From Vibrio alginolyticus NBRC 15630 = ATCC 17749 (lineage in GTDB: Bacteria; Pseudomonadota; Gammaproteobacteria; Enterobacterales; Vibrionaceae): a stretch of DNA of 32,000 nucleotides. A model generated the notes under the pieces. That model saw only the letters and a list, made by a program, of their open reading frames with translations. It did not search any database and was not told where the DNA came from. The stretch is taken from the NCBI RefSeq assembly GCF_000354175.2, contig NC_022349.1:2910001-2942000 (forward strand), in the 5' to 3' direction. A program made the translations under genes and the position numbers. Positions 16,199 through 17,718 of the stretch are shown here, piece after piece. The number at the start of each line of letters is the position of its first letter. Position 1 is the first letter of the stretch.

Positions 16199-16211
16199 CA
16201 ATTCTTTCCTT

Positions 16212-16240
16212 ATAAAAAAGCCTCCCGATTTGGGAGGCTT
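16212..16240 (-). terminator. pheA attenuator terminator (segments 3:4)
   Basis: The minus strand reads AAGCCTCCC-aaatc-GGGAGGCTT-TTTTAT and ends ~14 nt before the pheA ATG. Confidence 0.7.
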
Positions 16241-16252
16241 TCTGTTTGTTTT

Positions 16253-16281
16253 TGTGCCGTCCTAAATAAGGTTGACACTTT
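16253..16281 (+). repeat. IS left inverted repeat (IRL)
   Basis: TGTGCCGTCCTAAATAAGGTTGACACTTT, compared with the reverse complement of the right end, TGACCCGTCCTGATATGGGTTGACACTTT. Confidence 0.75.
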
Positions 16282-16306
16282 CCCCCCAAAAAAATTGGAG
16301 AGTGTT

Positions 16307-16702
16307 ATGAAATCAACAACTAAAAGAACTCAGCGCGATTACTCCCTCGCTTTTAAACTCACTGTAGTTGATGAGGTTGAAAAAGGAAGCCTCACTTACA
16401 AACAAGCCCAAGAGAAGTATGGCATCCAAGGTTGCTCTACGGTTTTGGTTTGGCTTCGTAAGCATGGTCGACTAGATTGGTCTAAAGGGACACCTAACTT
16501 TATGTCCAAAGGAGACTCTATGGCCGAGTTCAATTTACCTCCTACACCAGAGCAACGTATTAAAGAGCTTGAGAAGCAGCTCGAAGATGCTCAACTCAAA
16601 GCCGACTTCTTTGAAGCTGTCGTGAACGTTATGGAACGTGACTATGGTGTTAGAGTGACAAAAAAGCACAAAGAAGCGTTGTCCAAGAGAAAACCATTGT
16701 AG
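16307..16702 (+). CDS. IS3-family transposase OrfA (HTH DNA-binding part)
   Basis: ATG at 16307 after a GGAGAG RBS. 131 aa (MKSTTKRTQRDYSLAFKLTVVDEVEKG...) with an HTH and a leucine-zipper-like C-terminus. The track's extension back to 16187 crosses the IS boundary and overlaps pheA, so I discard it. Confidence 0.85.
   Translation: MKSTTKRTQRDYSLAFKLTVVDEVEKGSLTYKQAQEKYGIQGCSTVLVWLRKHGRLDWSKGTPNFMSKGDSMAEFNLPPTPEQRIKELEKQLEDAQLKADFFEAVVNVMERDYGVRVTKKHKEALSKRKPL
16660..16666 (+). other. Programmed -1 ribosomal frameshift heptamer A-AAA-AAG (orfA to orfB)
   Basis: ACA AAA AAG in the orfA frame. The -1 frame is open from here into orfB (…KKAQRSVVQEKTIVGLSVTKFCQ…). Confidence 0.75.
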
Positions 16703-16704
16703 GT

Positions 16705-17511
16705 TTGAGCGTTACGAAGTTTTGTCAGTTAGTACAAATCTCTCGCCAAGCTTATTATAAGCAATGCCAAACTCAATCTCGTTGTGAACATCATGAGCAT
16801 GCTGTCATTGGCTTTGTCCGTGAAGTCAGGCTGAAGCAGCCACGCATTGGCACGCGTAAACTGAAGTTCTTAGCAGCAACAAAGGGCATTCAAATAGGTC
16901 GCGATAAGCTCTTTGAACTTCTCAGAAAGCATCGGCTGTTAGTGAGAGCAAGACGAGCCTATCACCGAACGACTGACAGCCGTCATCGATTTTTCTGTCA
17001 CCCAAACAAAGTGAAAGATGGGCTGACACCAACGAAGCCAGAACAACTGTGGGTTGCTGATATTACTTACTTGCCAACTCAAAATGGAGAGAGTTATCTC
17101 AGCTTGGTTACAGACGCTTATTCAAGGAAGATTGTTGGTTTTTATGTGGATGACAACATGAAAACTCAATCAGTTAAGCGGGCATTTATCTCAGCTCTCA
17201 GGCAACGGCAGAGTGAAGAAAAGCTAATACACCACTCAGATAGAGGCTCACAATACTGTTCGAGGGAATATCAAGATATCCATAAGAAACATAGAGTGAC
17301 TTGCTCAATGACTGACGGGTATGACTGTTATCAGAATGCTTTAGCTGAGCGTGTAAATGGGATACTCAAAATGGAGCTCTTGCTGAAGAAACCGAAAGAT
17401 CTGAAAGAAGCAAGGACGATGGTAGCAGAGTCCGTAGATATCTATAATCAAATGAGGCCTCATACGGCTTTAAAATACAAAACGCCCGATGAAGTACATC
17501 GAGCGTTTTAG
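16705..17511 (+). CDS. IS3-family transposase OrfB (DDE/RNase-H-fold catalytic domain); expected to be made as an OrfAB fusion
   Basis: 268-aa ORF in the -1 frame relative to orfA. DDE triad context: WVADITYL, HHSDRGSQY, ALAERVNGILK. There is no ATG at its start (TTG only), consistent with frameshift expression. Confidence 0.9.
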   Translation: MSVTKFCQLVQISRQAYYKQCQTQSRCEHHEHAVIGFVREVRLKQPRIGTRKLKFLAATKGIQIGRDKLFELLRKHRLLVRARRAYHRTTDSRHRFFCHPNKVKDGLTPTKPEQLWVADITYLPTQNGESYLSLVTDAYSRKIVGFYVDDNMKTQSVKRAFISALRQRQSEEKLIHHSDRGSQYCSREYQDIHKKHRVTCSMTDGYDCYQNALAERVNGILKMELLLKKPKDLKEARTMVAESVDIYNQMRPHTALKYKTPDEVHRAF

Positions 17512-17515
17512 TTAA

Positions 17516-17544
17516 AAAGTGTCAACCCATATCAGGACGGGTCA
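17516..17544 (-). repeat. IS right inverted repeat (IRR)
   Basis: See IRL. The repeat ends ...GGACGGGTCA at 17544. Confidence 0.75.
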
Positions 17545-17581
17545 TTTGACTTTTCTTTCACAAACGAGTTCGCCCCTCCAA

Positions 17582-17629
17582 CTATGGGAGGAAAAAGAAG
17601 TCAAAAATAAACAGTGAGGTTAAATGCAT
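17582..17629 (-). CDS. pheL: pheA leader peptide (Phe-rich, 15 codons)
   Basis: The minus strand reads ATG CAT TTA ACC TCA CTG TTT ATT TTT GAC TTC TTT TTC CTC CCA TAG, giving MHLTSLFIFDFFFLP. It has 5 Phe codons, 3 of them consecutive. The stop codon sits in the loop of a CCTCC/GGAGG hairpin. Its position between raiA and pheA matches E. coli pheL. Confidence 0.75.
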   Translation of the reverse strand: MHLTSLFIFDFFFLP

Positions 17630-17659
17630 AAATAGTGCTTAATTTATGAGTGTTTAAAC

Positions 17660-17688
17660 ACAATAAGCAAGGCAGGGGAGAGCGTCAA
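17660..17688 (-). promoter_or_regulatory. Putative sigma-70 promoter of pheL-pheA
   Basis: The minus strand has TTGACG (17688-17683), a 17-nt spacer and TATTGT (17665-17660), ~30 nt upstream of the pheL ATG. Confidence 0.5.
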
Positions 17689-17718
17689 GCAAAAAAATAG
17701 CGCCTTTCGGCGCTATTT
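17689..17718 (-). terminator. Rho-independent terminator of raiA
   Basis: AAATAGCGCC-tttc-GGCGCTATTT hairpin, followed on the minus strand by TTTTTTT (plus A-run 17690-17696). Confidence 0.7.

What the first reader, a model, noticed from the sequence alone, without database searches (positions are those of the whole stretch)
16202..17700. IS3-family element sits inside the pheL-pheA transcription attenuator, between segments 2 and 3
Read on the minus strand, the elements run as follows:
- Promoter TTGACG-17 nt-TATTGT (17688-17660).
- Leader ORF MHLTSLFIFDFFFLP (17629-17582).
- The leader's stop codon lies in CCTCC-catagtt-GGAGG (segments 1:2).
- The IS right end (17544) begins 37 nt further on.
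- On the far side of the IS the sequence resumes with AAACAAACAGAA-AGCCTCCC-aaatc-GGGAGGCT-TTTTTAT (segments 3:4, the terminator), and pheA starts ~14 nt later.

The CCTCC/GGAGG/CCTCC/GGAGG logic of a classical Phe attenuator is therefore intact, but it is cut in two by 1.29 kb of DNA transcribed in the opposite direction. Deleting the IS and one copy of the flanking TTT restores a compact leader.

Predicted consequence: pheA is separated from its promoter and leader peptide. The 3:4 terminator can no longer be antagonised by 2:3 pairing. pheA expression should therefore be low and insensitive to Phe, unless read-through or an IS-borne outward promoter compensates.
Basis: partly seen in the sequence, partly recalled or inferred. 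Interest (0 to 1): 0.7.

Follow-up and report, generated by a model that had tools for sequence, protein, structure and literature searches.

The report
IS element splits phenylalanine attenuator
In one Vibrio alginolyticus strain, a 1.3-kb jumping gene that habitually lands next to transcription-terminator hairpins has landed inside the well-known regulatory leader of the phenylalanine gene pheA; this probably cuts pheA off from its promoter, and it is a real but fairly ordinary strain-specific mutation.

Summary
On the minus strand the order is raiA, PpheL, pheL (MHLTSLFIFDFFFLP), a 1292-bp IS3-family element (16253-17544), an intrinsic terminator, then pheA.

- **Identity of the leader.** Ninety IS-free Vibrio loci carry one contiguous leader. 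It matches Rfam Phe_leader RF01859 at 75-85 bits against a threshold of 55. The two window halves score only 27 and 38 bits.
- **Source.** The window is 100% identical to V. alginolyticus FDAARGOS_114. Five assemblies with an identical neighbouring Slt protein lack the insertion.
The IS lies inside the A-rich 3' arm of a long, covariation-supported 1:2 helix, which is also the antiterminator loop. It does not lie cleanly between segments 2 and 3.
- **Likely effect.** A terminator inside the IS faces PpheL. No promoter is predicted between the IS and pheA. The 3:4 terminator is intact. pheA is therefore probably uncoupled from its promoter and from Phe control. This is inferred, not measured.
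- **Why this site.** In 20 of 23 copies the IS left end lies 10-20 nt after a hairpin plus T-tract; none has one at the right end. The attenuator hairpin read on the opposite strand fits this target.
- **Precedents.** IS1541 sits between pheL and pheA in Yersinia, and terminators upstream of ISs are a reported general pattern.

Interest is modest.

The parts
17735..18061 (-). raiA (ribosome-associated inhibitor A), the upstream neighbour, as in E. coli raiA-pheL-pheA
   Evidence: Pfam PF02482. NCBIfam RaiA/YfiA. E. coli shows the same gene order.
17691..17718 (-). raiA intrinsic terminator (AAATAGCGCC-gaaa-GGCGCTATTTTTTT)
   Evidence: Read directly from the sequence. Conserved in all Vibrio loci.
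17660..17688 (-). PpheL promoter, TTGACG-17 nt-TATTGT
   Evidence: The only sigma70-like site in 16100-17800. Conserved across Vibrio.
17582..17629 (-). pheL leader ORF, MHLTSLFIFDFFFLP*
   Evidence: Sequence. Conserved as M-x4-L-F-[FI]-F-D-[FL]-F-F-L-x in 70+ species.
17587..17614 (-). Segment 1: the 5' arm of the 1:2 helix (CTGTTTATTTTTGACTTCTTTTTCCTCC), overlapping the Phe codons
   Evidence: MFE fold of the IS-free allele. Rfam consensus structure. Covariation.
17545..17579 (-). Retained part of segment 2 (GGAGGGGC...GAAAGAAAAGTCAAA), ending at the IS junction
   Evidence: Inverted repeat I6. Fold of the truncated leader.
16253..17544 (+). IS3-family insertion sequence, 1292 bp, transposase on the strand opposite to pheA. 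Flanked by TTT at 16250-16252 and at 17545-17547.
   Evidence: Twenty-one further near-identical copies elsewhere have ends TGTGCC...GGGTCA and 3-bp duplications, one of them imperfect (CTG/CTC in L115). A 74%-identical relative in V. pelagius has a left end reading TGACCC and a 3-bp AAT duplication.
16253..16281 (+). Left inverted repeat (IRL), the end next to the attenuator terminator and pheA
16307..16702 (+). orfA, with the A6G frameshift site at 16660-16666
   Evidence: NF033516 N-terminal match.
16705..17511 (+). orfB (DDE/rve catalytic domain), in the -1 frame relative to orfA. The fused OrfAB product is 401 aa.
17478..17510 (-). Bidirectional intrinsic terminator inside the IS right end. 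On the pheA-sense strand it is a 14-bp stem followed by UUUUGUAUUUU, so it should stop transcripts coming from PpheL.
   Evidence: Conserved in the V. pelagius relative.
17516..17544 (+). Right inverted repeat (IRR)
16242..16252 (-). Detached base of the 1:2 3' arm (AAAACAAACAG), now stranded on the pheA side of the IS
   Evidence: It pairs with CUGUUU/UU in the IS-free leader. The pair at columns 70:157 covaries: CG 50, UA 17, UG 9.
16214..16241 (-). Segments 3:4, the attenuator terminator (AAAGCCTCCC-aaatc-GGGAGGCTTTTTT). Read on the + strand, it is the hairpin plus T-rich tract that the IS targeted.
15020..16198 (-). pheA (chorismate mutase / prephenate dehydratase), intact
   Evidence: Pfam CM_2 + PDT. 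The exact 392-aa sequence is present in 1671 collection blocks.

Best explanation
The window comes from Vibrio alginolyticus FDAARGOS_114. Its raiA-pheL-pheA region carries the classical ribosome-mediated phenylalanine attenuator (Rfam RF01859). A recent, strain-specific insertion of an intact IS3-family element has split it.

The 1292-bp IS lies in the A-run of the 3' arm of the long 1:2 helix, 14 nt from the 3:4 terminator hairpin. This one position does three things:
- it removes the basal pairs of the 1:2 helix;
- it puts 1.3 kb into the loop of the 2:3 antiterminator;
- it leaves the 3:4 terminator intact, directly upstream of pheA.

Expected consequences (inferred):
- Transcripts from PpheL translate pheL. 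They enter the IS antisense to the transposase and meet an IS-borne intrinsic terminator within about 70 nt.
- Any RNA polymerase that gets further, or that starts inside the IS, meets a 3:4 terminator that segment 2 can no longer antagonise.
- pheA is therefore largely uncoupled from its promoter and from tRNA-Phe sensing. Its expression should be low and Phe-insensitive, giving a leaky or bradytrophic Phe requirement.

Why the IS landed here (shown statistically; mechanism inferred):
- This IS lineage inserts with its left end 10-20 bp after a GC-rich hairpin followed by a T-tract, in a fixed orientation.
- That places its transposase gene behind a host terminator.
- In the Phe attenuator, the A-rich arm needed to pair with the UUU/UUC codons reads as a T-rich tract on the opposite strand, directly after the terminator hairpin. 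The attenuator therefore mimics the IS target.
For: The insertion is real and recent.
- The window is 100% identical over 11,947 nt to CP014045.1, named FDAARGOS_114 in PMC7216594.
- A second assembly breaks its contig inside the IS at the same junction.
- Five assemblies with the identical 648-aa Slt protein, and ten with the identical PheA protein, are IS-free.
- pheA is undamaged.

The leader is a Phe attenuator.
- RF01859 scores 83, 85, 75.8 and 75 bits on IS-free loci against a gathering score of 55. The window halves score 38.5 and 27.4 bits.
- The MFE is -47 kcal/mol with z = -4.55.
- For the 1:2 and 3:4 helices, 98.1% of cells are paired and 7 pairs show compensatory change. No shuffle in 500 reached these values, and slid controls gave 46-64%.
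- The 2:3 pairing is 92.6% paired. It forms when segment 1 is masked.

Evidence for polarity.
- A terminator-like site lies at 17510-17478 on the pheA-sense strand. PpheL is the only promoter-like site.
- No candidate reaches 8 of 12 matches between 16700 and pheA.
- The 3:4 hairpin persists in the junction fold.

Evidence for targeting.
- 20 of 23 copies have a terminator-like hairpin 4-20 nt before IRL, and 0 of 23 have one before IRR.
- The background is 1.3% over all positions and 4.7% over intergenic positions, giving P of about 5e-24.
- The same tatC/tatD hairpin was hit from both sides, always with IRL proximal.
- A relative with 74% identity in V. pelagius shows the same geometry.
Against: - There are no expression or growth data. 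Intrinsic terminators leak, and a weak or non-sigma70 promoter inside the IS cannot be excluded.
- The perfectly conserved pheA ORF is equally compatible with continued use.
- V. alginolyticus is classically described as prototrophic (own knowledge). The strain may therefore still make enough PheA.
- The rest of the genome was not searched for another prephenate or arogenate dehydratase.
- The flanking TTT duplication implies an A4 target, whereas all relatives have A5.
- The association with terminators could owe something to post-insertion selection rather than to target choice alone.
Confidence: 0.7

Rival explanations
1. The insertion is real but phenotypically nearly neutral. Enough transcription reaches pheA, by read-through of the IS terminator and the 3:4 hairpin or from an unrecognised promoter inside the IS. 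PheA activity is then set mainly by feedback inhibition, and only attenuation control is lost.
For: - pheA is intact and identical to the common allele.
- The strain exists in culture collections and was sequenced at least twice.
- Terminators are never fully efficient (general knowledge).
- The G-run UUUGGGGGG near IRL on the pheA-sense strand could in principle pair with CCUCCCAAA of segment 3. In the predicted fold it is held in a local hairpin instead.
Against: - Two strong terminators in series lie between PpheL and pheA, separated by 1.2 kb of untranslated antisense RNA.
- No promoter-like site was found, even at relaxed stringency.
- The leader is uninterrupted in 5426 of 5426 complete E. 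coli genomes, which suggests such disruptions are not freely tolerated.
Confidence: 0.22
2. The position next to the terminator reflects only survival of harmless insertions between convergent genes, not a target preference of the IS. On this view the hit in the attenuator is a random event.
For: - ISs in general are enriched in inter-operonic regions and between convergent genes.
- Terminator-like sequences upstream of ISs are reported across families, and were interpreted as favouring persistence (PMC13548323).
Against: - Selection alone would not give a 10-20 nt spacing (median about 15).
- It would not give a strict orientation: 20 of 23 on the IRL side and 0 of 23 on the IRR side.
- It would not give the same geometry on both sides of one hairpin, or in a relative with 74% identity.
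- The enrichment holds against an intergenic-only background.
- The pheL insertion itself is unlikely to be harmless, yet it obeys the same rule (14 nt).
Confidence: 0.15
3. Assembly artefact: the IS was placed at this locus by misassembly of a multicopy repeat.
For: The IS is multicopy in this species.
Against: - The record is a complete chromosome assembly.
- An independent draft assembly ends its contig in the IS at the identical junction.
- Both junctions carry the expected TTT direct repeat, and both flanks match the empty site exactly.
Confidence: 0.02

Closest known systems
E. coli pheL-pheA attenuator (Rfam RF01859 Phe_leader)
   Same: - Same gene order, raiA-pheL-pheA.
- A 15-codon leader ending in a run of Phe codons.
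- A long 1:2 helix, a GGAGGC/GCCUCC 2:3 alternative, and a GCCUCCC...GGGAGGC terminator just before pheA.
- The IS-free Vibrio allele scores 83 bits against a threshold of 55.
- The mechanism is described in PMC3082878.
   Different: In this window the element is split by 1292 bp, and neither half reaches the family threshold. In the Harveyi clade the 2:3 pairing is shorter, at 5 bp in the common register.
Yersinia pheL-IS1541-pheA (Gurvich et al. 2011, PMC3082878)
   Same: [quoted passage not shown] The authors conclude that attenuation may not be used to regulate pheA there.
   Different: - The IS family differs: IS1541 belongs to IS200/IS605 (own knowledge), whereas this element belongs to IS3.
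- The genus differs.
- In Yersinia the insertion is reported at genus level. In Y. pestis pheA itself is also broken by IS100.
- Here the insertion is confined to one strain lineage and pheA is intact.
- The exact position of IS1541 within the attenuator was not checked.
IS1272 / TnSha1 (IS1182 family) targeting of terminator hairpins in staphylococci (PMC4923244)
   Same: Target choice follows hairpin structure rather than primary sequence, and many of the targets are transcription terminators.
   Different: IS1272 inserts into the stem, deletes part of the hairpin, makes no target duplication and is found in both orientations. The Vibrio IS inserts 10-20 bp beside an intact hairpin, makes a 3-bp duplication and has one fixed orientation.
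General enrichment of terminator-like sequences immediately upstream of ISs (ISME J 2026, PMC13548323); also 'mobile attenuators' (Naville & Gautheret 2010, PMC2965389)
   Same: Host or IS-borne terminators precede transposase genes and are thought to shield them from read-through. The IS also carries a 3' terminator.
   Different: Those are statistical, family-level surveys. Here a single IS3-family lineage shows a sharp spacing and orientation rule, and the collateral damage is to a host attenuator.
IS1397 / ISKpn1 (IS3 family) insertion into REP/BIME palindromes; group IIC introns inserting after terminators (own knowledge, not tested)
   Same: These are mobile elements that recognise extragenic hairpin motifs. 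IS1397 shows that members of the IS3 family can have structure-linked target specificity.
   Different: Those targets are repeated REP units (insertion in the loop) or depend on an RNA-based retrohoming mechanism. Here the targets are unrelated intrinsic terminators and the insertion lies beside the hairpin.

Membership tests
Rfam RF01859 Phe_leader (pheL-pheA ribosome-mediated attenuator) | Covariance-model score at or above the gathering threshold (55 bits) | tested here: met
   Met for the uninterrupted allele: L081 (same PheA protein) scores 83 bits, and L072, L037 and L018 score 85, 75.8 and 75 bits. In the window itself the two halves score only 38.5 and 27.4 bits. The window therefore holds a disrupted member.
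Rfam RF01859 Phe_leader (pheL-pheA ribosome-mediated attenuator) | Short leader ORF with a run of Phe codons directly upstream of pheA | tested here: met
   MHLTSLFIFDFFFLP* at 17629-17582. A conserved pattern is found in 70+ Vibrio species.
Rfam RF01859 Phe_leader (pheL-pheA ribosome-mediated attenuator) | A 1:2 helix overlapping the Phe codons, and a 3:4 intrinsic terminator, both supported by comparative data | tested here: met
   98.1% of cells paired; 7 pairs with compensatory changes; 0 of 500 shuffles as high; slid controls 46-64%.
Rfam RF01859 Phe_leader (pheL-pheA ribosome-mediated attenuator) | Mutually exclusive 2:3 antiterminator pairing | tested here: inconclusive
   GGAGGCU/AGCCUCC is 92.6% paired, but the columns are nearly invariant, so there is no covariation. 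The pairing forms in a fold with segment 1 masked.
Rfam RF01859 Phe_leader (pheL-pheA ribosome-mediated attenuator) | Phe-responsive control of pheA transcription | not testable with these tools
   This needs expression measurements with and without Phe, in IS-bearing and IS-free strains.
IS3 family insertion sequence | DDE (rve) transposase made from two ORFs by a -1 frameshift | tested here: met
   PF00665, E = 7e-25. NF033516 at 271 bits against a cutoff of 160. A6G at 16660-16666 with orfB in the -1 frame; the fused product of 401 aa corresponds to the 401-aa length at which NCBI annotates the IS3 transposases of this cluster.
IS3 family insertion sequence | Imperfect terminal inverted repeats ending 5'-TG...CA-3' | tested here: met
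   TGTGCCGTCC... / ...GGACGGGTCA; 25-nt arms, 80% complementary.
IS3 family insertion sequence | Short (3-bp) direct target duplication, with multiple copies at unrelated sites | tested here: met
   3-bp duplications flank 21 of the 22 other copies examined, at distinct loci; one (L115) is imperfect, CTG/CTC. In the window TTT flanks both ends, but the empty site of relatives has one more A than expected.
IS3 family insertion sequence | Copy-out-paste-in transposition through a circular intermediate | not testable with these tools
   Requires an experiment.
IS1272-type hairpin-cleaving insertion (IS1182 family) | Insertion inside the hairpin stem, with partial deletion and no target duplication | tested here: not met
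   Hairpins remain intact 10-20 nt from IRL, and 3-bp duplications are present. The transposase belongs to the IS3 family. The element behaves like a hairpin seeker but is not a member of this group.

The most novel reading that the evidence does not exclude
This Vibrio IS3-family lineage is a structure-directed 'terminator seeker'. It recognises hairpin-plus-T-tract architecture and inserts about 15 bp downstream, in one orientation.

Leader-peptide attenuators would then be built-in decoys, the Phe leader above all. Its A-rich 1:2 arm reads as a T-tract after the terminator hairpin on the opposite strand. If so, terminator-seeking elements would be a recurrent, predictable cause of attenuator loss. 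IS1541 at the Yersinia pheL-pheA region would be an independent example.
Probability: 0.4. Interest if true: 0.55.

Novelty: new member of a known kind. Interest (0 to 1): 0.35.

Why it matters
The insertion provides a natural, cleanly defined knockout of a textbook attenuator, with the structural gene untouched. The strain is publicly available (FDAARGOS_114) and close IS-free relatives exist for comparison. This allows a simple test of how much pheA expression and Phe prototrophy depend on the leader in Vibrio.

More broadly, the element shows an unusually sharp terminator-adjacent, orientation-specific insertion rule for an IS3-family member. That offers a tractable model for how DDE transposases might read terminator architecture. 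It also warns that regulatory terminators (attenuators and riboswitches) are exposed to such elements.

The disruption itself is not conceptually new. An IS between pheL and pheA is already reported in Yersinia, and terminators upstream of ISs are a described pattern.

Tried and rejected
- **Rfam on the window.** At gathering thresholds nothing was found at the leader. Sub-threshold halves appeared only in an E-value search.
- **Outward promoter.** I looked for an IS-borne or junction promoter reading towards pheA. None was found with the tool or with a relaxed script requiring at least 8 of 12 matches.
- **Naming the IS.** The plasmid collection gave only 'IS3 family transposase' or unannotated hits. 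Cluster names were equally generic.
- **Phenotype literature.** A search for V. alginolyticus ATCC 17749 in minimal medium returned nothing useful. One paper reading failed on a too-short term.
- **Relation to the type strain.** I could not establish whether FDAARGOS_114 is the type strain, or whether CP006718 carries the same insertion. The exact OrfB sequence is annotated several times in ATCC 17749, but its positions were not retrievable.
- **Assembly artefact.** Considered and rejected.
- **IS1272-like mechanism.** Considered and rejected, because the hairpins are intact and target duplications are present.
- **Recurrence in E. coli.** I checked whether IS hits in the Phe leader recur in E. 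coli. The leader is uninterrupted in 5426 of 5426 complete genomes.
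Full report
**1. What is in the sequence**

Read on the minus strand, the region contains, in order:
- raiA (18061-17735; Pfam S30AE, NCBIfam RaiA) and its terminator.
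- A promoter, TTGACG-17-TATTGT (17688-17660). It is the only sigma70-like site the scan finds in 16100-17800.
- A 15-codon ORF, MHLTSLFIFDFFFLP* (17629-17582).
- CCTCC-catagtt-GGAGG, then GAAAGAAAAGTCAAA.
- A 1292-bp insertion (17544 down to 16253).
- AAAACAAACAGAAAGCCTCCCaaatcGGGAGGCTTTTTT.
- An AAGGA ribosome-binding site and pheA (ATG at 16198, ending at 15020; CM_2 + PDT domains).

**2. The insertion is an intact IS3-family element**
- Imperfect terminal inverted repeats lie at 16257-16281 and 17516-17540. The ends read TGTGCC...GGGTCA.
- orfA runs from 16307 to 16702. An A6G slippery heptamer lies at 16660-16666. orfB (16705-17511) is in the -1 frame.
- A simulated -1 frameshift gives a 401-aa product. 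NCBI annotates 401-aa 'IS3 family transposase' proteins in the same 90% cluster.
- Pfam rve has E = 7e-25. NCBIfam NF033516 scores 271 bits against a cutoff of 160.
- Twenty-one further near-identical copies lie at unrelated chromosomal and plasmid sites in V. alginolyticus, V. parahaemolyticus and related strains. Each has a 3-bp target duplication, one of them imperfect (CTG/CTC in L115).

**3. The two flanks are halves of one known regulatory element**
- Eighty Vibrio species representatives and ten genomes encoding the identical PheA protein all lack the IS.
- Apart from one MAG that has no leader at all (L073) and V. ordalii with a shortened one (L031), they have ...GAAAGAAAAGTCAAAAACAAACAGAAAGCCTCCC... 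as a contiguous stretch.
- The leaders of the ten identical-PheA genomes match the window's joined halves exactly, apart from one SNP in the promoter spacer (window 17674).
- The mini-ORF is conserved as M-x4-L-F-[FI]-F-D-[FL]-F-F-L-x.
- Rfam RF01859 (Phe_leader) matches four IS-free loci at 75-85 bits against a gathering score of 55.
- The window gives nothing at gathering thresholds. It gives two sub-threshold pieces, 38.5 bits at 16211-16344 and 27.4 bits at 17514-17626.

**4. Where exactly the IS sits**

- The MFE of the IS-free leader is -47 kcal/mol with z = -4.55.
- Both that fold and the Rfam consensus structure show a much longer 1:2 helix. CUGUUUAUUUUUGACUUCUUUUUC pairs with GAAAGAAAAGUCAAAAACAAACAG, and the helix abuts the terminator.

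On 77 distinct Vibrio leaders:
- The helix plus the terminator is 98.1% paired.
- Seven pairs show compensatory changes.
- No shuffle in 500 reaches these values, and slid controls give 46-64%.
- The covarying pairs include columns 70:157 (CG 50, UA 17, UG 9). This pair lies on the pheA side of the insertion point.

The IS is inserted in the A-run that pairs with U47-U51. It therefore cuts the 3' arm of 1:2.

When segment 1 is masked, as under a stalled ribosome, and segment 4 is not yet made, the predicted fold is the 2:3 antiterminator (UGGAGGGGC/GCCUCCCA). A helper helix, GUUUGU/ACAAAC, closes its loop. The IS interrupts that loop too. The 2:3 pairing is 92.6% conserved but invariant, so it has no covariation support.

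'Between segments 2 and 3' is therefore roughly right topologically but imprecise.

One further detail. Relatives have A5 at the empty site. The window has A3 + IS + A4, so removing the IS plus one TTT leaves A4. Either the target allele was one A shorter, or the duplication here is effectively 2 bp.

**5. Provenance**
- The window is 100% identical over 11,947 nt to CP014045.1. That record is V. alginolyticus FDAARGOS_114 chromosome 1 (PMC7216594).
- A second, draft assembly (GCA_019846195.1) is identical up to the IS and ends its contig inside it. This argues against misassembly.
- Five other assemblies with the identical 648-aa Slt protein lack the IS at pheL.
- At least one IS-free genome (CP099956.1) carries five or more copies of the IS elsewhere.

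The insertion is therefore recent and lineage-specific. pheA is intact and identical to an allele present in 1671 collection blocks.

**6. Probable consequence (inferred, not measured)**
- On the pheA-sense strand, a strong terminator-like hairpin lies just inside the IS right end (17510-17478; 14-bp stem, then UUUUGUAUUUU). It is predicted by the scan and appears in the fold of the PpheL transcript.
- It is bidirectional and also ends the transposase gene.
- Beyond it lie about 1.2 kb of untranslated antisense RNA, and then the intact 3:4 hairpin.
- No promoter-like site exists on that strand between 16700 and pheA, even at 8 of 12 matches.
- pheA should therefore be largely uncoupled from PpheL and from Phe sensing.

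Against this: terminators leak, unconventional promoters are not covered, and no phenotype data were found.

As a baseline for rarity, the E. coli pheL-pheA leader is uninterrupted in all 5426 complete genomes searched.

**7. Why the IS is there**

In the other copies, the left flank almost always holds an A-tract, GC-rich hairpin and T-tract motif that ends 10-20 nt (median about 15) before IRL.

I applied an operational definition: a stem of at least 7 bp with at least 4 GC pairs, a loop of 3-8 nt, at least 4 T in the next 8 nt, and a stem end 4-20 nt from the junction.
- 20 of 23 copies qualify on the IRL side and 0 of 23 on the IRR side.
- The background is 1.3% of all positions and 4.7% of intergenic positions.
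- The binomial P is about 5e-24.

Further support:
- One tatC/tatD hairpin has been hit from both sides, each time with IRL proximal (L094 against L114).
- A relative with 74% identity on a V. pelagius plasmid sits 15 nt after an A6-hairpin-T6 motif.
- In the window, the 3:4 hairpin read on the + strand is followed by TTTCTGTTTGTTTT, and IRL begins 14 nt after the stem. The scan itself calls this a + strand terminator-like site (16217-16241).

The T-rich tract is the complement of the A-rich 1:2 arm that must pair with the UUU/UUC codons. The Phe attenuator therefore looks like this IS's preferred target when read from the other strand. The recognition mechanism is unknown.

The likely benefit to the IS is shielding of its transposase gene behind a host terminator. 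Its own IRR-proximal terminator replaces the one it displaces.

**8. Comparison with what is known**
- The attenuator is the classical pheL-pheA system (RF01859; mechanism summarised in PMC3082878).
- The same paper reports that in Yersinia the pheL-pheA region is disrupted by IS1541, and that attenuation may not operate there. This is a direct precedent with a different IS family.
- Targeting of terminator hairpins is known for IS1272/TnSha1. That element cuts within the stem, makes no duplication and inserts in both orientations (PMC4923244).
- A 2026 survey reports terminator-like sequences over-represented immediately upstream of ISs, most strongly for IS200/IS605 (PMC13548323).
- Naville and Gautheret described IS-associated 'mobile attenuators' (PMC2965389).

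The finding is therefore a new instance of known kinds of event. The sharp spacing and orientation rule in an IS3-family lineage is the most novel element. I found no description of it, but ISfinder could not be consulted.

**9. Verdict**
The functional prediction is plausible but untested.
- Novelty: new member of a known kind.
- Interest: 0.35.

Noticed in passing
window 16214-16281; loci L091-L100, L108-L119 (IRL flanks): The IS left end lies 10-20 nt after an A-tract, GC hairpin and T-tract motif in 20 of 23 copies, and never at the right end. The same tatC/tatD hairpin was hit from both sides (L094, L114). A relative with 74% identity in V. pelagius (L118) follows the same rule.
   Followed up: yes
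window 17478-17510: A bidirectional intrinsic terminator lies inside the IS right end and overlaps the orfB stop codon. It would end host transcripts entering from the IRR side, and so could replace the host terminator that the IS displaces.
   Followed up: partly
window 16250-16252 / 17545-17547 versus L081-L090: The flanking TTT/TTT duplication implies a 4-A target. All IS-free genomes encoding the identical PheA protein, and 14 related species, have 5 A. The discrepancy is one nucleotide within a homopolymer. L115 also shows an imperfect duplication (CTG/CTC).
   Followed up: yes
window 17674: A single SNP in the PpheL spacer (T on the minus strand, where ten IS-free genomes encoding the identical PheA protein have A). 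It is the only leader difference apart from the IS.
   Followed up: no
L073 (MAG Vibrio sp. VLC_062) 3942-4003; L031 (V. ordalii) 3852-4006: Natural leader variants. L073 appears to go from the conserved promoter straight into pheA, with no pheL or attenuator. V. ordalii has a shortened leader peptide (MHLTSLFFFLP) and an altered 3' arm.
   Followed up: no
window 16290-16312 (minus-strand RNA): UUUGGGGGG near IRL on the pheA-sense strand is complementary to CCUCCCAAA of terminator segment 3. In the predicted fold it is held in a local hairpin with CUCUCCAA. It could be a surrogate antiterminator, but that is speculative.
   Followed up: partly
window 9660-9970: A full-length match to Rfam RF02567 (Va-907, V. 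alginolyticus sRNA) at 371.6 bits.
   Followed up: no
window 7215-8342 and about 7193 upstream; 14040-14351: By correspondence with L101, tyrA (CM_2 + PDH) and a DAHP synthase gene (aroF-like) lie about 7 kb from pheA. trpR lies between slt and the DUF84 NTPase gene. This forms an aromatic amino-acid gene neighbourhood as in E. coli (pheA-tyrA-aroF).
   Followed up: no
window 25830-31269: A complete rRNA operon (16S, two tRNAs, 23S, 5S) followed by two more tRNAs.
   Followed up: no
E. coli genome collection: The pheL-pheA leader is uninterrupted in all 5426 complete E. coli genomes. RefSeq annotates it as 'Phe leader region'.
   Followed up: yes
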